Below, one piece after another: positions 19,236 through 25,143 of a stretch of DNA of 64,000 nt (the stretch's first letter is position 1; the number at the start of each line of letters is the position of its first letter). Location: the UHGV virus genome UHGV-0109738, one strand, 5' to 3'. The notes beneath the pieces were generated by a model. It was not told where the DNA came from, did no database searches, and saw nothing but the letters and a program-made list of their open reading frames with translations. Source of the DNA: a virus. Both the position numbers and the translations under genes were made by a program.

Positions 19236-19442
19236 ATGAAGGGGAAGTTAACAAAATGGCACAAAGGGCGCGGGATGAACGATAAACTATGGAGACTGAC
19301 CTTATTTGTGAGTAATGGGCGTGATATCGAGGCTGAATTCGATAACCCTAGCGACGCCTTAGAAACGTCCATTTACCTATCAGAAAAAGATGATCGCGTC
19401 CTGGGCTACCGGATTAAACCGATTAAAAGCGGGGATCAGTAA
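19236..19442 (+). CDS. hypothetical moron protein
   Basis: ORF track; opposite strand to tail genes; start uncertain (internal ATG at 19275). Confidence 0.35.
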   Translation: MKGKLTKWHKGRGMNDKLWRLTLFVSNGRDIEAEFDNPSDALETSIYLSEKDDRVLGYRIKPIKSGDQ

Positions 19443-19443
19443 A

Positions 19444-19794
19444 ATGCAAAAATACCGTCTAGATGTATGGATGGCAGGCAGTAAAGATTGGGAAGGTTAC
19501 GGATTATATGACAGTTACGAAATGGCAGTCGAGGAAGGAGAAAAACTTGTTCGCTTCTTCGGGCGCGCCAGGGAATTCAAAATAACTCAGGTACAAATAG
19601 ATGAGAAGGTGGAAGATATGAACCCGAAAGATATTAACTTTAACGTCAATGTTAATTTTGCTGACTCTATGGATCAGTCTTGCCCTGGTGAAATACACGC
19701 AAAGGGTTTCCCGGCTGATGATCCTGATGCAAAACGCGAATACGAAAAAGCGGCAAAAGATTTCTGTATCGACAATTTAAGTTGCTTTGATTAA
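19444..19794 (+). CDS. hypothetical moron protein (116 aa)
   Basis: ORF track; start reassigned to ATG overlapping upstream stop. Confidence 0.45.
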   Translation: MQKYRLDVWMAGSKDWEGYGLYDSYEMAVEEGEKLVRFFGRAREFKITQVQIDEKVEDMNPKDINFNVNVNFADSMDQSCPGEIHAKGFPADDPDAKREYEKAAKDFCIDNLSCFD

Positions 19795-19799
19795 AAATT

Positions 19800-20285
19800 A
19801 TGAAATGGTACAACATCTTTACTTATAATGAAGGGAAATTATTCTGGAAGATACCAACAAGCGGTAGAATTACCAACGGCAAGGAAGCCGGAAGTTTGCA
19901 CAACGGGTATATTGTTATCTGTGTGCAAAATAAAAAGTATAAGGCACACAACATAATTTGGGAAATGCACAACGGCCCGATCCCAGAAGGGTATGTGATT
20001 GACCATATAAACCATATAAGGAGTGATAACAGAATATAAAATCTAAGAATGATAACAAAACAAGAAAACATGAAAAATATGCCGTTATCCAGAAGGAATA
20101 AGAGCGGGTGCATTGGCGTATGGTGGAATGAAGCGAATAAAAAATGGATTGTAAGAGTGATGATTAGTGGGGTGTATCGGCATATAGGGTGTTTTAATAG
20201 CTACCTTGATGCGTGTAACGCCTCAAAAGAAGCGCACGAAATCGGAGGGTACTATAAAGAACATGGCGCGGCGCAATCACAGTGA
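19800..20285 (+). pseudogene. HNH homing endonuclease with AP2-type DNA-binding domain, interrupted by a single in-frame TAA
   Basis: Two track ORFs (19800-20039, 20049-20285) are in the same frame separated by TAA at 20037-20039; motifs HNGYIVI..AHNIIWE..IDHINHIRSDNRI then NLR..QENMKNM and AP2-like SGCIGVWWNEANKKWIVRV. Confidence 0.7.
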
Positions 20286-20511
20286 TTATGTATACACGTT
20301 GAAACAGGCCGCCCGCCTTATCGGTTATCATGAACACGAATTTATTGATTTGCTGATTGAGCGCGGGATACTGTACCAGGTCTGCTTAACGCTGTACCCT
20401 AAAGCGAAATACCTACAGGAAAAGTTATTTATCATCATGACGGATGAAAACCAGGTTAATCACTCATTCGTCACTGATAAGGGATTGACATATTTGAAGG
20501 GGGCGTTATGA
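20263..20511 (+). CDS. hypothetical protein (82 aa), possible HTH
   Basis: ORF track; internal ATG chosen; overlaps 3' end of HNH ORF in another frame. Confidence 0.35.
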   Translation: MARRNHSDYVYTLKQAARLIGYHEHEFIDLLIERGILYQVCLTLYPKAKYLQEKLFIIMTDENQVNHSFVTDKGLTYLKGAL

Positions 20512-20613: not shown

Positions 20614-20795
20614 TAATCGTAGGATAGAAATGCTACTTCTTTGCCATCCCAAGTCGTACAGCCGATATATCCATCACCCATATCATGAAGATACCACGTC
20701 TCGCCATTATCAGCCCGGACAGTAAGATCATTAATTTCATAGTCGGCGAACAATGTAAAAGCGCCAGTGCGCTCCACTACACAAAAATAAGGCAT
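20613..20795 (-). CDS. hypothetical protein (60 aa)
   Basis: ORF track. Confidence 0.35.
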   Translation of the reverse strand: MPYFCVVERTGAFTLFADYEINDLTVRADNGETWYLHDMGDGYIGCTTWDGKEVAFLSYD

Positions 20796-20806
20796 ATCCC
20801 CTCCCT

Positions 20807-21160
20807 CTAATTAATAACTTGCTCAAATGTTGCATTTAGCGTGTATAGCGGACCGTCTTTAGTCATGCTCCAGCTACGGCAAACAAAAAGCCTTTGCACG
20901 TTATCCATCGACGGCGACCAGTAAAAAGCCTCGACAGCGCCACGCGCCCTCAAGAATGCTTCCGCCTGGATCGCTACATTCCCACCATCGCCGCATCCTG
21001 CACTACTGCCTTTAAAAACCAGGGTGTAACTATCAAGTAATGTGTTAATCCCTTTCGCCTGGCGTTGTTCATACCCATCACCAAGTTTAATGACAGATAC
21101 GTTTGGTTCCCTGGTCACGCTGTAGCTTCTTTGCGGCGTCCATCTGAACACTTCCGGCAT
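20807..21160 (-). CDS. M: minor tail protein M
   Basis: N-terminal FRWTP..GDGYEQR and C-terminal NATFEQVIN match lambda M (FRWKV..GDGYSQR; EFSAEFEQVVN). Confidence 0.85.
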   Translation of the reverse strand: MPEVFRWTPQRSYSVTREPNVSVIKLGDGYEQRQAKGINTLLDSYTLVFKGSSAGCGDGGNVAIQAEAFLRARGAVEAFYWSPSMDNVQRLFVCRSWSMTKDGPLYTLNATFEQVIN

Positions 21161-21192
21161 AAAACCCCCACAAGTTACATTTTGTATATATC

Positions 21193-21216
21193 TTTACGCG
21201 CTTCTACGCGAAAAAT
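21193..21216. promoter_or_regulatory. conserved motif TTTACGCG-N4-TACGCGAAAAAT (copy A) upstream of M
   Basis: tttacgcgcttctacgcgaaaaat; second copy at 33325-33348. Confidence 0.4.
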
Positions 21217-21327
21217 GAGATCTTTGTCACAATGATTATAGCTAGTTTACAAAATGGCTTCACGTAGCATGCAACAAGATGTATATAGAAAGCAAGAAGA
21301 AAGCAGTACCAACGAAGGAGGCCCAAA

Positions 21328-21483
21328 ATGAAACGCTATGTAGTAGTAATGCTAAATAACGCATTCGAACAAGTGGAAATAGCAATCGTTAAGGGTTTCG
21401 ACGACGCATTCAAATACGGTCAATTCATGATGAATGCGAAAGAAGATGAATACCGGGACTTCTTCCTGAAGGCACTTAACTAA
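21328..21483 (+). CDS. small protein (51 aa) with strong RBS
   Basis: GAAGGAGG SD 7 nt upstream of ATG; below the 60-aa track cutoff, found by manual translation. Confidence 0.5.
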   Translation: MKRYVVVMLNNAFEQVEIAIVKGFDDAFKYGQFMMNAKEDEYRDFFLKALN

Positions 21484-21500
21484 GGATGATGGGGTGAGTT

Positions 21501-21755
21501 ATGAAACTGGTAGCGATTGACAAAAACCTGAAAGCACAGAAAAACGCGCCGGAACGTGTAGTTAAAAAAGCAAGGGAGCTTTTGAACGCGTTTTTAAACA
21601 AGGATGTGTCGCCCAAAAAATTAAAAGACGGTTACGGCTACGCCTTCCGCGCCAATTTAGACTGGCGAGTCTATAGCCAGGATCTGAAGGAGTGGGTGAT
21701 TGTTGAACATCATAAATTTAATGAATTATCTGGCGTGCGCGGTTGCCATAAGTGA
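21501..21755 (+). CDS. hypothetical protein (84 aa), weak RelE/HigB-toxin-like motif
   Basis: ORF track; motif GYAFRANLDWRVY..VIVEHH reminiscent of RelE/HigB-type toxins (unverified). Confidence 0.4.
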   Translation: MKLVAIDKNLKAQKNAPERVVKKARELLNAFLNKDVSPKKLKDGYGYAFRANLDWRVYSQDLKEWVIVEHHKFNELSGVRGCHK

Positions 21756-21865
21756 GTCGGGATATGAAGGACGATAAATTCACCTGGCGTGAGATCTGGA
21801 ACATCTGGTTAGTGATGTCCAGTAGGAGTTACATCGCACGTAACGGCAGACTGTAGGAGAAAAAA

Positions 21866-22048
21866 GTGATTATTGAAGAAACAAAACGTTGTTATGGTGT
21901 CCGGTTAGATCTTGAAAATGATGTATTGTGGATAACCGAACTTATGGGGACTGACACCATCGTGATTGACAAGTCGCAGGCTGTACAGCTTATTGCTGGA
22001 CTACAAAAGTTTGTTGATGGTGAGTTTAAAAACGAAGAGGTAGACTAA
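21866..22048 (+). CDS. hypothetical protein (60 aa)
   Basis: ORF track; GTG start with AGGAG SD. Confidence 0.4.
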   Translation: MIIEETKRCYGVRLDLENDVLWITELMGTDTIVIDKSQAVQLIAGLQKFVDGEFKNEEVD

Positions 22049-22053
22049 GAAAA

Positions 22054-22072
22054 AGGCCACTATAAGTGGCCT
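22054..22072. terminator. terminator-like hairpin (bidirectional)
   Basis: aggccac-tataa-gtggcct flanked by A-run and T-containing run. Confidence 0.5.
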
Positions 22073-22077
22073 TAGTG

Positions 22078-24420
22078 TTATTTGCGGCGCGGTTGCAACA
22101 TTCCGCCCGGTCTTTGAGATTCCCTTGTTATCATCTTCATAGCTACACGTTCCATTGTCTGTTCAAGTCTGCGGCTGTCTTCGTCGCTGAATCCGTTCGT
22201 TGTCTGAATGCTGATACTGACAGGCATACTAATACCGCCACCGCCGCCAATATCACGGCCCGGAATAACTCTGCCGTTCTCGCCAGGAATCATATATTGA
22301 TTCCCGTTAGGCGTCTGGAATAGCTCCGTCCTGTTGTTTTCCCCGACACGGTACAAGTTGCCACCAATGACGCTACCACCATTAAAGCGCCTGCCACCGA
22401 AGATGGATGTTGCCAGAGACATGATCGCAGTGAGTGCCGCAGAGCCAGCCGCCGCCCAGCTACCGCCAGTTGATGCTGCTGTTGCCGCCGCTGCCGGGGC
22501 CGCTGCCGCAGCGATGCTACCCTGAGCGGCTACCGCACTTGCCGTTGTGCTGGCCTGCGTTGCCTTGCTTTGTGTCTCCATCATGATTTGATCTGCTATC
22601 CAGTTGGCGGCTATGTCAGAAAGCCTGTTGCCGATGTTCCCTAGTATATTGCTCCCTAAGTTAGCAAAAACATCGCTCAATGATTGAGTGCCGTTAAGCA
22701 GGCCAACAAGCGCATTGCTCATGCCACCTTTAAGGCCATTAACGCAATCACCGATAAGGCCGTTAGTGTCGCTTTGCGCCTGCCACTGCTCCCATTTCAG
22801 ATCGCGGATCTGCTGCTCATAGGCTAACAATTCCTGTTTCTGTTGTGCTTCTGTAGCGCCCAGGTCGATAAGCATTTGCTTACGGACGGCCCATTCATTT
22901 TGTGCCTGCTGGATGGGGTCAACCTCGCCTTTTAGCTGGTCCATCGGGCTAACTATTTGCGACCATTTATCACGCAGTTCATCTACCGGGATCTGCGCTA
23001 ATTCTTCTTTCAGTTCCTTGCCGATCCCTTTTTGCGCGGCGCGGTACTCAAGGAGCGTGATTTTACCCTGGGCAAATGCAGCATCAATGGCCTTGCCGTT
23101 CTCCAACGCTTTGCGCATGGCGGCGGCGTCTTTGTTGTACTGATCAGAAACGCTTATACCTTTGTCACCAAGCCGATCAGCTTCCGATTTCTTCTCTTTT
23201 TTCTGTTTTTTCGGCTTGTCTACTGGCTTGTCGAATCCGGTAATCGCTCCGTCATTGGCAGCATTCTGTTCATTTTTCCTTGCTTCTTCTGTAGCCTGGA
23301 TTGCTGCGGTCAGATCATCCTGTAGTTGCATGACCTTGCCAACGGTCTTCCCGTATTTCTTCTCGTAGTTGCTGTTATATTCGTCGGTTTGCTCTCCTAC
23401 TACCTCCTTCACCCATTTATAGCCATCCATTAGCGCCTTGATTGGCGTCACCATTGCGATGATCTTCTCTGCCACCTCTCCAGCCTTAACAGCCACATCA
23501 TCAAACATGTCGATAAATTCGCTACCAGCCGTTTTGAGTGTGTCGAAGCAGGTTTTAGCGAATTTAGCGCCATCGCCAAGCCCTTTAACGCCTTTCGTGA
23601 TCAAGTCGATAGCTGAAACAACGCCATCTGACACGCCAAAAAGATCATCCAACTGCTCAACAAGGCCCATAATTTCTACTTTAAGCTCATTGATAGCCAT
23701 GCCGGATGTGCGCGGCAACTGAGCAAACTTATCGTTTGTTTCCTGCGTAGCCGCCTGTATTGCGTTAACCATCCTTTCAGCCGTGATCTTGCCGTCCAGC
23801 ATTTCGGCGCGGAACTGGCCCATTGATAATCCCATATGGCGGGCCATTGTTTGTACGATGGTCGGCGTGTTTTCAAGCAGGCTGTTAAATTCTTCGGCAC
23901 GAAGAACACCGCCGTCGATAGACTGACGGAATTGACGCATTGAGTTAGACATCTGTTCCGCTGACGCGCCGCCTAATGCACCCATTTTCTGAATAGTGCC
24001 AACCAGGTTAAGCAATTGCCCTTCCGTAGCGGAGGTGTTTTTTAGTGAGATAGCCAGGCCTTGCCATAATTCGCCAGTATCTTTCAGGCTCTGCCCCGTC
24101 TCCCTGGATATTTCTTTCAGACCATCAAAAACCCGCCCGGCAGATTCCGCGTCGCCTGTAAGCATTTTGATTTTGACGCGTAGCATTTTGGCCTGCTCTG
24201 CCATTTCCATAAACTGTCTAACGGCCTCGGCAGCAATTAGCAGATGGATAACCCTGGTCAGTGCTTTGATTGATGTTTTCAGTGTGTTTACCTGGCGATC
24301 GGCCTGTTTAGCACCGCGCTCTATACGGTCAAAGGCCTGGTCTGCCTGTCGTTGTGCTACAAGAAGTTGTCCTGTTTTTGCGTCAACTTCGTAATAAATT
24401 GTGCCTACACTGGTAGCCAT
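22078..24420 (-). CDS. tail tape measure protein
   Basis: 780 aa, alpha-helical, Gly/Ala-rich C-terminal region; located between tail chaperone position and M. Confidence 0.85.
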   Translation of the reverse strand: MATSVGTIYYEVDAKTGQLLVAQRQADQAFDRIERGAKQADRQVNTLKTSIKALTRVIHLLIAAEAVRQFMEMAEQAKMLRVKIKMLTGDAESAGRVFDGLKEISRETGQSLKDTGELWQGLAISLKNTSATEGQLLNLVGTIQKMGALGGASAEQMSNSMRQFRQSIDGGVLRAEEFNSLLENTPTIVQTMARHMGLSMGQFRAEMLDGKITAERMVNAIQAATQETNDKFAQLPRTSGMAINELKVEIMGLVEQLDDLFGVSDGVVSAIDLITKGVKGLGDGAKFAKTCFDTLKTAGSEFIDMFDDVAVKAGEVAEKIIAMVTPIKALMDGYKWVKEVVGEQTDEYNSNYEKKYGKTVGKVMQLQDDLTAAIQATEEARKNEQNAANDGAITGFDKPVDKPKKQKKEKKSEADRLGDKGISVSDQYNKDAAAMRKALENGKAIDAAFAQGKITLLEYRAAQKGIGKELKEELAQIPVDELRDKWSQIVSPMDQLKGEVDPIQQAQNEWAVRKQMLIDLGATEAQQKQELLAYEQQIRDLKWEQWQAQSDTNGLIGDCVNGLKGGMSNALVGLLNGTQSLSDVFANLGSNILGNIGNRLSDIAANWIADQIMMETQSKATQASTTASAVAAQGSIAAAAAPAAAATAASTGGSWAAAGSAALTAIMSLATSIFGGRRFNGGSVIGGNLYRVGENNRTELFQTPNGNQYMIPGENGRVIPGRDIGGGGGISMPVSISIQTTNGFSDEDSRRLEQTMERVAMKMITRESQRPGGMLQPRRK

Positions 24421-24723
24421 GATTTAACCTCATGCAAAATGTGATCTATGCATCTATTTTATACAAAATGTCTTTATTTTAACGATACCGTTTTGTATAG
24501 ATGATGTAGAGAAAGATAGAAGAGATGCAGGAAGGCCGGATGTCCCGGAGGAAGTGAAAGAGGATAAGAAAATGAGAAACGTAAACTACCGTCCCAACGA
24601 ATATGAACGCTATGCGGACCTTATCGAAGAAATGTTAAAAGCACTTAAAAAATAAACAATATGCGTGTATAACTAAGTTAAAGGAAGCATTTAGCAAATC
24701 AGAATAATTACAGGGGGTTGATT

Positions 24724-25143
24724 ATGAAACGGTTAGCAAAAATGGTGCTTGCTGTGATTGCTGCACTAGCATTTAACGCTAACGCTAACGCTAACGAGGC
24801 CATAAACATTAACTGTGAAGAAGTGGCAAACCATGTAGCCGCATATCACGACATGATCAAAAAAGAACCAGCCGCACCCACAATTCTTTTTAAGGCAATT
24901 GATAAAAATTTTGAAGGTAAACCAGTTTATGCTCGTTGGTTTAATTATGGCCTTGTAAACGAGGCTGCTGTAGGCGTAGTCTTTGAAAACAACAGCGAAA
25001 TAAAAAACAGGATAGCTAACGAGTGTAAAGCAAATAAAGTTGCTTTCGCTGAAAGAATTTTTAATAAAGGCGGCGCTGGTGCAAAAAATCACGCAATTGT
25101 CGATTTAGGTAACGGTTTTATTGATATTGTTAGAATCAAATAA
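24724..25143 (+). CDS. secreted hypothetical protein (moron), 139 aa
   Basis: Signal peptide MKRLAKMVLAVIAALAFNANA; AGGGGG SD; contains AACGCT x3 hexamer repeat. Confidence 0.55.
   Translation: MKRLAKMVLAVIAALAFNANANANEAININCEEVANHVAAYHDMIKKEPAAPTILFKAIDKNFEGKPVYARWFNYGLVNEAAVGVVFENNSEIKNRIANECKANKVAFAERIFNKGGAGAKNHAIVDLGNGFIDIVRIK

What the first reader, a model, noticed from the sequence alone, without database searches (positions are those of the whole stretch)
21328..22072. Opposite-strand cassette between tail genes M and H with a strong-RBS 51-aa protein and a RelE/HigB-like candidate
Three plus-strand genes are embedded in the minus-strand tail operon and end at a hairpin terminator. 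The first (51 aa) has a consensus GAAGGAGG RBS. The second (84 aa) has a motif GYAFRANLDWRVY..VIVEHH that loosely resembles RelE/HigB-family toxins. This may be a toxin-antitoxin or abortive-infection style moron.
Basis: inference. Interest (0 to 1): 0.5.

Follow-up and report, generated by a model that had tools for sequence, protein, structure and literature searches.

The report
Phage RelE/ParE-fold gene cassette
A small opposite-strand gene cassette inside the tail genes of an mEp021-type E. coli phage does encode a protein with the fold of RelE/ParE bacterial toxins, but public annotation already names this family and the evidence does not support a classical toxin-antitoxin pair.

Summary
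Window 21328-22073 is a plus-strand cassette between minus-strand tail genes M and tape measure. It has the stated GAAGGAGG ribosome-binding site and ends at a 9-bp bidirectional hairpin. It holds four conserved genes, not three: 51, 84, 30 and 60 aa.

The toxin-antitoxin reading is not established.
- No neighbour resembles a known antitoxin.
- The 51-aa partner is present in 52 of 55 related loci, but its alleles do not co-vary with the 84-aa alleles.
- The 84-aa gene stays intact with the 51-aa gene deleted (three genomes) or frameshifted (one).
- The pair is core to this phage group (35 of 35 E. coli prophages), not sporadic.
- Relatives occur in virulent jumbo phages with unrelated neighbours.

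My best reading is a phage-deployed RelE-like effector, probably an mRNA nuclease, with the 51-aa protein as a dispensable partner (confidence 0.4). A true toxin-antitoxin module remains a live rival (0.3). Interest is modest.

The parts
20807..21160 (-). Context: minor tail protein (lambda M-like), left boundary of the cassette
   Evidence: Pfam PF05939 Phage_min_tail, E 3.3e-28; phrog_14 minor tail protein.
21161..21327 (.). Conserved divergent intergenic (regulatory) region. By inspection it holds a plus-strand candidate promoter (-35 TTCACG 21259-21264, 17-nt spacer, -10 TATATA 21282-21287). It also holds an invariant TATAAT on the minus strand (21240 to 21235) and a direct repeat TACGCG-N4-TACGCG (21195-21200 and 21205-21210).
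   Evidence: Mean pairwise identity across 42 distinct sequences is 87.7%, against 73% and 58% at third codon positions of the 51-aa and 84-aa genes. The consensus scan found no promoter that met its criteria, so the promoter calls are inference from conservation.
21314..21321 (+). Shine-Dalgarno GAAGGAGG of the 51-aa gene
   Evidence: Read directly from the sequence. AAGGAGG or AAGGGGG is kept in most relatives.
21328..21483 (+). p51: 51-aa acidic protein of unknown fold. It is the usual upstream partner of the 84-aa gene and the candidate modulator or antitoxin.
   Evidence: It matches phrog_29810 (unknown function) and no Pfam, NCBIfam or PADLOC family. It is found only in this phage group, at 76% identity or more. 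It is present in 52 of 55 loci with dN/dS 0.06. It was never found without the 84-aa gene.
21501..21755 (+). p84: 84-aa basic protein (about +8 net charge) of Pfam PF24732 'ParE_like', with a RelE/YoeB/YafQ/HigB-type (BECR) fold. Its putative ribosome-binding site GGGGTGAG is at 21491-21498.
   Evidence: PF24732 at E 3e-8, 34 bits against a 24.4-bit cut-off. AF2 pLDDT 84.5. [quoted passage not shown] Arg56 is invariant, and Ala24, Lys40, Leu41 and His70 are kept in at least 90% of 20 diverse members.
It is optional within the phage group.
   Evidence: It aligns full-length in 34 of 55 loci (two of those carry an internal stop) with dN/dS 0.06. It has no family match.
21866..22048 (+). p60: 60-aa very acidic protein with a GTG start. 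It is variable cargo of the cassette.
   Evidence: It matches phrog_13627, E 1.6e-10, unknown function. It is present in about 25 of 55 loci and has no PDB sequence match.
22053..22073 (.). Bidirectional intrinsic-terminator hairpin shared by the cassette and the convergent tape measure gene
   Evidence: Terminator-like on both strands. The fold gives a 9-bp stem, -18.6 kcal/mol, z = -3.0. Equivalent terminators are annotated in mEp021, mEp515, mEp554 and mEp010.
22078..24420 (-). Context: tail length tape measure protein, right boundary of the cassette
   Evidence: Pfam PF20155 TMP_3, E 4.6e-50; phrog_1538, E 1.7e-156.

Best explanation
The cassette is a conserved, self-contained plus-strand transcription unit of mEp021-type (mEpimmI) temperate coliphages. 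It has a fixed 5' module (regulatory region, 51-aa gene, 84-aa gene). Behind that comes a swappable set of small cargo genes, and then a bidirectional terminator.

The 84-aa protein is a divergent member of the RelE/ParE (BECR-fold) toxin superfamily. It belongs to Pfam PF24732, a family spread through temperate and virulent enterobacterial phages.

I infer that it acts like RelE, YoeB or YafQ. That means a small basic protein that engages the ribosome or RNA and cuts mRNA. The likely functional residues are the family-invariant Arg56 on strand beta3 and the conserved His70-x-x-Tyr/Phe73-Asn74 motif just after beta4.

I infer that the phage uses it as an effector, comparable to T4 RegB, and not as the poison of an addiction module. 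The 51-aa protein is its habitual partner and may temper it, but it is not required for lysogens to tolerate the 84-aa gene.

Shown here: the anatomy, family membership, predicted fold, conservation and distribution. Inferred: RNase activity, the target, the timing of expression and the role of the 51-aa protein.
For: Fold and family:
- PF24732 passes its cut-off.
- The AF2 model has pLDDT 84.5.
- Foldseek ranks YoeB first.

Functional site:
- Arg56 is invariant, and Lys40, Leu41 and His70 are kept in at least 90% of 20 members at 20-35% identity. [YF]73-[ND]74 is also conserved.
- hhalign is not significant, but it places Leu41 on YoeB Leu48 and Arg56 on catalytic Arg65.

Not a classical toxin-antitoxin pair:
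- The 84-aa gene is intact with the 51-aa gene precisely absent in UMNK88 and two IMG/VR genomes. UMNK88 has no 51-aa gene copy anywhere.
- The 51-aa gene is frameshifted and the 84-aa gene intact in strain MFDS1019527.
- The alleles do not co-vary: Mantel r 0.09, with 196 of 2000 permutations at or above it. One 51-aa allele pairs with all three 84-aa clades.
- No antitoxin family was found in any neighbour, here or in 10 other lineage contexts.

Effector-like distribution:
- All 35 of 35 E. coli prophages of this type carry it.
- 66 phage records hold relatives. These include jumbo Alcyoneusvirus and other ~350-kb phages in arrays of small genes, and Sortsnevirus and Murrayvirus, where the gene sits next to the lysis genes.

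Precedent: T4 RegB has the RelE/YoeB fold and no known antitoxin (PMC3014915).
Against: - No activity data exist for any PF24732 member.
- The window's own clade has Phe, not Tyr, at position 73.
- The minimal cassette is exactly the 51-aa plus 84-aa bicistron in about 13 loci. The 51-aa gene was never seen without the 84-aa gene. It is acidic, sits upstream and has the stronger ribosome-binding site. All of that is typical of an antitoxin-toxin operon.
- The four cases of 51-aa gene loss could reflect a silent promoter in lysogens, compensating changes or assembly errors.
- That the jumbo phages are virulent rests on my own knowledge and was not tested here.
Confidence: 0.4

Rival explanations
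1. This is a bona fide type II toxin-antitoxin module. The 51-aa protein is a small antitoxin that binds and neutralises the 84-aa toxin. The pair is expressed from the prophage and provides abortive infection, superinfection exclusion or prophage stabilisation.
For: - The order (small acidic protein first, basic RelE-fold protein second), the 17-nt spacing, and the strong GAAGGAGG site ahead of a weaker GGGGTGAG site fit relBE- or parDE-like operons.
- The pair co-occurs in 52 of 55 loci and is the whole cassette in about 13 loci.
- The 51-aa gene was never found without the 84-aa gene: all 42 IMG/VR loci found with it lie on contigs that the 84-aa search had already returned.
- The toxin fold is supported.
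- The unit is opposite-strand with its own terminator, which fits a lysogen-expressed gene.
Against: - An intact 84-aa gene occurs without the 51-aa gene in four genomes, from two independent events: a deletion lineage and a frameshift.
- The alleles do not co-vary.
- The 51-aa protein is more conserved than the supposed toxin and is hydrophobic and well ordered in appearance. It matches no antitoxin or DNA-binding family.
- Being core to the phage group and present in virulent phages with unrelated neighbours is atypical for addiction modules.
Confidence: 0.3
2. The fold is retained but the protein is not a growth-arresting toxin. It would be a non-catalytic RNA-, ribosome- or protein-binding regulator or an anti-defence factor, and the 51-aa protein would be an unrelated neighbouring gene.
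For: - Lysogens tolerate the 84-aa gene without the 51-aa gene.
- No basic residue is conserved on strand beta2, where RelE has Lys52 and Lys54.
- The window's clade has Phe for Tyr at position 73.
- The neighbours are lineage-specific.
- Purifying selection is strong and the gene is core, which points to a routine phage function.
Against: Arg56 is invariant and the His-x-x-Tyr-Asn motif is conserved across very divergent members. Both sit where RelE, YoeB and YafQ place catalytic residues. The protein has the small size and high positive charge typical of active mRNA interferases.
Confidence: 0.17
3. The protein is a ParE-type gyrase poison, as the Pfam name suggests, and not an RNase.
Against: - Pfam naming does not separate RelE from ParE function (Gerdes 2025, PMC11980606).
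- Other annotators called relatives YafQ-like or HigB-like.
- The conserved Arg and His-Tyr positions resemble RNase sites.
Confidence: 0.08
4. The antitoxin is a downstream gene, in the HigBA-like order: either the 30-aa peptide or the acidic 60-aa protein.
For: - The 30-aa gene starts 8 nt after the 84-aa stop codon, with a GAGG-type ribosome-binding site in most relatives.
- All three loci with the 51-aa gene deleted keep the 30-aa gene.
- The 60-aa protein is strongly acidic (read from the sequence).
Against: The 30-aa gene is absent or decayed in 21 of 55 loci and the 60-aa gene in about 30 of 55, while the 84-aa gene stays intact. About 13 loci have neither. With these frequencies, about one locus lacking both the 51-aa and 30-aa genes is expected by chance, so seeing none is not informative.
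Confidence: 0.05

Closest known systems
Pfam PF24732 'ParE_like' (PGAP name 'ParE family toxin-like protein'); phrog_1525
   Same: The 84-aa protein scores above the family's gathering cut-off. Twenty of 20 diverse relatives hit this family and no other toxin family. NCBI already gives this name to 60-90% identical prophage proteins in E. coli.
   Different: The family is only a computational grouping. I found no paper that mentions it. It is not among the 13 BECR toxin families surveyed by Gerdes 2025 (PMC11980606).
RelE/YoeB/YafQ/HigB ribosome-dependent mRNA interferases of type II toxin-antitoxin systems
   Same: - The size, high positive charge and predicted fold match: beta, helix, then a three-stranded sheet and a short C-terminal helix.
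- The [aromatic]-Arg-[LIV]-[LIV] strand aligns with YoeB His64-Arg65-Leu-Val. A conserved His and an aromatic residue follow the last strand.
   Different: - There is no significant sequence or profile similarity.
- The protein has one long helix where these toxins have two.
- There is no YefM, RelB, DinJ or HigA-type antitoxin next to it.
- It is tolerated without its upstream partner.
- It is core to a phage group rather than sporadically distributed.
ParE gyrase-poisoning toxins (ParDE; PaaA2-ParE2 of prophage CP-933P)
   Different: ParE scores below the RNase toxins. The 51-aa protein shows no similarity to ParD or PaaA2.
Bacteriophage T4 RegB endoribonuclease
   Same: It is a phage-encoded protein with the RelE/YoeB fold, no sequence similarity to them and no known antitoxin. 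The phage uses it to inactivate mRNAs (PMC3014915).
Phage N15 gp49-type (PF05973) HigB-like toxins and other prophage toxin-antitoxin morons
   Same: These are RelE-superfamily toxins carried by temperate phages as small operons that run independently of the structural genes.
   Different: Those have an adjacent HTH antitoxin and are accessory. Here no HTH or RHH partner is detectable and the gene is core.

Membership tests
Pfam PF24732 ParE_like | HMM score above the curated gathering threshold | tested here: met
   34 bits against a 24.4-bit cut-off, E 3e-8, covering residues 19-74 and 65 of 67 profile positions. All 20 aligned relatives also match.
RelE/ParE (BECR-fold) toxin superfamily | Compact alpha/beta fold: N-terminal strand and helix packed on a 3-4-stranded antiparallel sheet, with a C-terminal extension | tested here: met
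RelE/ParE (BECR-fold) toxin superfamily | Detectable sequence or profile homology to a characterised member family (PF05016, PF06769, PF15738, PF05015, PF15781 and others) | tested here: not met
   hmmscan reports only PF24732 at E up to 1. A PDB profile search finds no toxin. hhalign against YoeB, RelE and YafQ gives about 1% probability.
RelE/YoeB-type mRNA interferase | Catalytic constellation: an Arg or Lys on the sheet plus a C-terminal His, Arg or Tyr | tested here: inconclusive
   Arg56 is invariant, His70 is kept in at least 90% of members and [YF]73 is conserved. Arg56 aligns with YoeB Arg65 only in non-significant alignments.
Type II toxin-antitoxin module | An adjacent co-transcribed gene encoding a cognate antitoxin from a recognisable family or with a DNA-binding domain | tested here: not met
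   The 51-aa, 30-aa and 60-aa proteins have no Pfam, NCBIfam or PADLOC hit and no PDB sequence hit. Neighbours of relatives are also unrecognisable, or are ParB-like or DUF5417.
Type II toxin-antitoxin module | The toxin gene is not maintained without its antitoxin, and the partners co-evolve | tested here: not met
   The 84-aa gene is intact without the 51-aa gene in L020, L050 and L051, and with a frameshifted 51-aa gene in L114. Mantel r is 0.09, with 196 of 2000 permutations at or above it.
Type II toxin-antitoxin module | The toxin arrests growth and the antitoxin rescues it by direct binding | not testable with these tools
   This needs expression and rescue assays.
Moron (an independently transcribed accessory insert in a phage late operon) | Its own promoter and terminator, orientation independent of flanking genes, and sporadic presence among related phages | tested here: inconclusive
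   The terminator and opposite orientation are confirmed. The promoter is only inferred from conservation, since the scan found none. Sporadic presence holds for the 30-aa and 60-aa genes and other cargo. It does not hold for the 51-aa/84-aa pair, which is in 35 of 35 prophages.
PADLOC-listed anti-phage defence systems | A match to a defence-system protein model | tested here: not met
   None of the four proteins matches any PADLOC family at E up to 1.

The most novel reading that the evidence does not exclude
PF24732 proteins may be a phage-wide class of stand-alone RelE-like effectors, in effect mini-RegBs, that work without a dedicated antitoxin. They would be carried by temperate mEp021-type phages as a core gene and by virulent jumbo and ~42-kb phages. 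They would be used to reprogramme or shut off translation, or to counter host defences. The 51-aa protein would then be a new kind of small, fold-unknown modulator. The strongly conserved divergent control region would link their expression to tail gene M.
Probability: 0.3. Interest if true: 0.6.

Novelty: new member of a known kind. Interest (0 to 1): 0.35.

Why it matters
If the 84-aa protein is an active RelE-like nuclease that phages carry as a core gene without an antitoxin, it would extend the RegB precedent. It would show that the 'toxin' fold is a routine phage tool and not only an addiction or defence device. It would also give PF24732, a family with no literature, a function.

Practically, the result warns against reading 'ParE family toxin-like protein' annotations as evidence of a toxin-antitoxin system. 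Natural 51-aa-less variants already exist for a clean test. If it turns out to be an ordinary toxin-antitoxin pair, it adds one more small antitoxin type and is of modest interest.

Tried and rejected
- Sequence routes to solved toxins. PDB profile searches and hhalign against E. coli YoeB, RelE, YafQ and a 4-sequence YoeB alignment were all non-significant.
- NCBIfam and PADLOC gave nothing for any of the four proteins.
- Exhaustive HMM search of 1.8 billion representatives found only 12 hits. The family is small and confined to enterobacteria and their phages.
- A conserved antitoxin among neighbours of distant relatives was sought in six metagenomic or genomic contexts and four phage contexts. 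Neighbours are lineage-specific: DUF5417, ParB-like, a kinase-like protein, or unknown. None resembles the 51-aa, 30-aa or 60-aa proteins.
The afdb50 fold library was unavailable.
- Translational-coupling RNA structure around the 84-aa gene's ribosome-binding site: none (z = +0.68).
- Rfam on 20700-22300 found nothing credible.
- The sigma-70 consensus scan found no promoter.
- Literature: the mEpimmI paper (PMC11893012) does not discuss these genes. There are no papers on PF24732, 'ParE family toxin-like' or DUF5417.
- A plasmid search with a DUF5417-linked relative gave one weak hit.
- The 40-aa minus-strand ORF at 21204-21326, annotated in some relatives, is rejected as a gene. The region carries 1- and 2-nt indels among relatives.

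Full report
**What the window is.** The region belongs to a temperate E. coli siphovirus of the mEp021 / 'mEpimmI' group.
- DNA from 21150-22100 matches Escherichia phages MagusPhagus (94%), mEp515, mEp021, mEp554, mEp010 and mEp044.
- An IMG/VR contig is identical over the cassette (L022).
- The flanking minus-strand genes are a lambda-M-like minor tail protein (20807-21160, PF05939) and the tape measure protein (22078-24420, PF20155).

**Checking the observation.**
- The 51-aa ORF is at 21328-21483, preceded by GAAGGAGG at 21314-21321.
- The 84-aa ORF is at 21501-21755 and carries the quoted motifs.
- The 60-aa ORF is at 21866-22048.
- A 9-bp GC-rich hairpin at 22053-22073 scores as a terminator on both strands and folds well beyond shuffled controls (z = -3.0).
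It aligns full-length in 34 of 55 related loci (two with an internal stop) and has dN/dS 0.06.
- The 51-aa and 84-aa genes are clearly real. Across 55 loci (the window, 6 phages, 2 E. coli prophages and 46 IMG/VR contigs), the 84-aa ORF is intact and exactly 84 codons long in 53. The 51-aa ORF is exactly 51 codons long in all 52 loci that have it. dN/dS is 0.06-0.07 at dS near 1.

**Anatomy of the cassette across relatives.** The 5' part is fixed: a ~170-bp intergenic region, the 51-aa gene and the 84-aa gene.
- The 3' part varies. It carries combinations of the 30-aa gene, a 49-aa gene, a 58-aa gene, the acidic 60-aa gene, an HNH endonuclease (mEp515), zinc-ribbon proteins (mEp021) or a membrane protein (strain PAR). 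The terminator always follows.
- In about 13 loci the 51-aa and 84-aa genes are the only intact genes.
- The intergenic region is more conserved (87.7% mean pairwise identity) than third codon positions of the 51-aa gene (73%) or the 84-aa gene (58%), so it is under regulatory constraint.
- By inspection of the alignment it contains a plus-strand TTCACG-17 nt-TATATA. It also has an invariant TATAAT on the minus strand pointing at tail gene M, and a direct repeat TACGCG-N4-TACGCG.
- The consensus promoter scan reported nothing. These promoter calls are therefore inference.

**What the 84-aa protein is.**
- It passes the gathering threshold of Pfam PF24732 'ParE-like toxin domain' (34 bits against 24.4) and matches phrog_1525 (unknown function).
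- Word-indexed and exhaustive HMM searches found only a small family. Sources name members 'ParE family toxin-like protein'.
- Adding 15 distant members gave a confident model (pLDDT 84.5, pTM 0.71) with topology beta-beta-alpha-beta-beta-beta-alpha.
- Foldseek ranked S. aureus and E. coli YoeB first, with probability 0.96 and TM 0.48.
- The scores are moderate, but the enrichment is unambiguous. mRNA interferases consistently rank above ParE gyrase poisons.
- Sequence-level links are absent.
- Across 20 members at 20-35% identity, Arg56 is invariant. Ala24, Lys40, Leu41 and His70 are kept in at least 90%, and [YF]73-[ND]74 is conserved.
- The non-significant hhalign registers put Leu41 on YoeB Leu48 and Arg56 on YoeB catalytic Arg65.
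- The protein is very basic (13 Lys and 5 Arg against 10 acidic residues, counted from the sequence).
- Together this favours a RelE/YoeB/YafQ-like RNA-directed activity, but that remains inference.
- Gerdes (2025, PMC11980606) notes that Pfam names do not separate RelE-type from ParE-type function. That survey lists 13 BECR families, and PF24732 is not among them.

**Is it a toxin-antitoxin pair?**

Points in favour:
- The gene order, spacing and relative ribosome-binding-site strengths fit such an operon.
- The partner is small and acidic.
- The two genes co-occur in 52 of 55 loci, and a two-gene minimal cassette exists.
- The 51-aa gene was never found alone.

Points against:
- The 51-aa, 30-aa and 60-aa proteins match no antitoxin, DNA-binding or defence family.
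- The 51-aa protein is confined to this phage group and is more conserved than the putative toxin.
- 51-aa and 84-aa allele distances are uncorrelated (Mantel r 0.09, 196 of 2000 permutations at or above it). The commonest 51-aa allele pairs with all three 84-aa clades, which differ by up to 40%.
- In E. coli UMNK88 and two ~53-57-kb IMG/VR genomes the 51-aa gene is precisely missing. An intact 84-aa gene sits directly behind the same 5' region. It differs at only two variable positions from an allele found with the 51-aa gene.
- UMNK88 has no 51-aa gene copy elsewhere.
- In strain MFDS1019527 the 51-aa gene has a 1-nt deletion in codon 5 and the 84-aa gene is intact.
- Conversely, the 84-aa gene is frameshifted, at A-runs, in strain PAR and in L066, where the 51-aa gene is intact. 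Either gene can therefore be lost. That is not the asymmetry an addiction module predicts.
- All 35 complete E. coli genomes that carry this phage type's M gene also carry the cassette. The pair is core, not a sporadic moron.

**The wider family.** tblastn against 50,697 phage records finds relatives in 66.
- They include jumbo phages: Klebsiella K64-1 gp471 (annotated 'YafQ-like ribonuclease toxin'), RaK2, Muenster, E. coli G17 and slurp01.
- They include ~42-kb Sortsnevirus and Murrayvirus phages, where the gene lies just upstream of the holin and endolysin genes and overlaps an upstream 125-aa gene by 4 nt.
- They include a Hendrixvirinae Serratia phage ('HigB-like protein', overlapping an upstream ParB-like gene).
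- Metagenomic and genomic members sit behind DUF5417 or ParB-HTH genes, or inside long arrays of small unknown genes.
- The neighbours share no similarity across lineages or with the 51-aa, 30-aa or 60-aa proteins.
- From my own knowledge, the jumbo phages are virulent, so an addiction role makes little sense there.
- T4 RegB is a documented phage RNase with the RelE/YoeB fold and no known antitoxin (PMC3014915).

**Verdict.** The toxin-antitoxin or abortive-infection part is unproven, and several lines of natural-variation evidence argue against it.
- Most likely (0.4): a phage-deployed RelE-like effector, probably an mRNA nuclease, with the 51-aa protein as a dispensable partner.
- A genuine toxin-antitoxin pair with the 51-aa protein as a new small antitoxin: 0.3.
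- A non-toxic repurposed fold: about 0.17.
- A ParE-type gyrase poison: about 0.08.
- A downstream antitoxin: about 0.05.

In terms of novelty this is a new member of a known, uncharacterised family within a well-known superfamily. The interest is moderate and lies in the atypical context: a core phage gene, no recognisable antitoxin, and presence in virulent phages. The literature on this phage group (PMC11893012) does not discuss these genes.

Noticed in passing
window 21764-21856 (+): A conserved 30-codon, Trp-rich micro-gene (MxDDKFTWREIWNIW..SYIARNGRL) starts 8 nt after the 84-aa stop codon. It aligns full-length in 34 of 55 related loci with dN/dS 0.06, has an internal stop in two loci and decayed remnants in others, and matches no family.
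   Followed up: partly
window 21161-21327: The intergenic region between tail gene M and the cassette is more conserved (87.7%) than synonymous sites of the flanking genes (58-73%). It has an invariant TATAAT on the minus strand (21240 to 21235) and a direct repeat TACGCG-N4-TACGCG (21195-21210). Its candidate -35 elements for the two strands overlap at 21258-21264. This may be an internal promoter or operator for the distal tail genes.
   Followed up: partly
window 19800-20285 (+): An HNH_3 homing-endonuclease gene in the neighbouring plus-strand cassette is split by a single in-frame stop codon at 20037-20039 (..SDNRI*NLRMITKQ..). An intact homologue sits inside the ParE-like cassette of mEp515.
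   Followed up: partly
window 19236-20511 (+) and 24554-25143 (+): The minus-strand tail operon is interrupted by two more opposite-strand insertions. One lies between L and M and includes a KilAC antirepressor-like protein (PF03374). The other lies beyond the tape measure gene and encodes a 141-aa protein with a signal-peptide-like N-terminus and no Pfam match.
   Followed up: partly
window 21501-21548 (first 16 codons of the 84-aa gene): Synonymous divergence is much lower in codons 1-16 (dS 0.53) than in codons 17-84 (dS 1.28). Megablast matches to several relatives end about 75 nt into the gene. This points to a recombination (mosaic) boundary inside the 84-aa gene, or an RNA-level constraint at its 5' end.
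   Followed up: no
L021 about 1880-1900 (E. coli PAR) and L066 about 2480-2500: Both natural frameshifts of the 84-aa gene fall in poly-A runs. They could be sequencing errors, slippage-prone sites or real inactivation.
   Followed up: no
L007, L113 (ParB-like); L011, L012, L018 (DUF5417); L110, L015 (kinase-like): PF24732 genes recur in fixed lineage-specific pairings. They overlap the 3' end of a ParB-HTH-like gene in an Enterobacter island and in Serratia phage OS31. They overlap a DUF5417 gene by 4 nt on plasmid- or island-like contigs. In Alcyoneusvirus-like jumbo phages a protein-kinase-like gene follows, directly in L015 and after a membrane-protein gene in K64-1 (L110). The meaning is unknown.
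   Followed up: partly
L007 1-3726 (Enterobacter asburiae CP050520.1): One relative lies in an island with a 1043-aa SbcC/AAA_23-type ATPase, two unknown proteins, a ParB-HTH protein and an AlpA-family regulator. This looks like a defence-island or satellite context.
   Followed up: no
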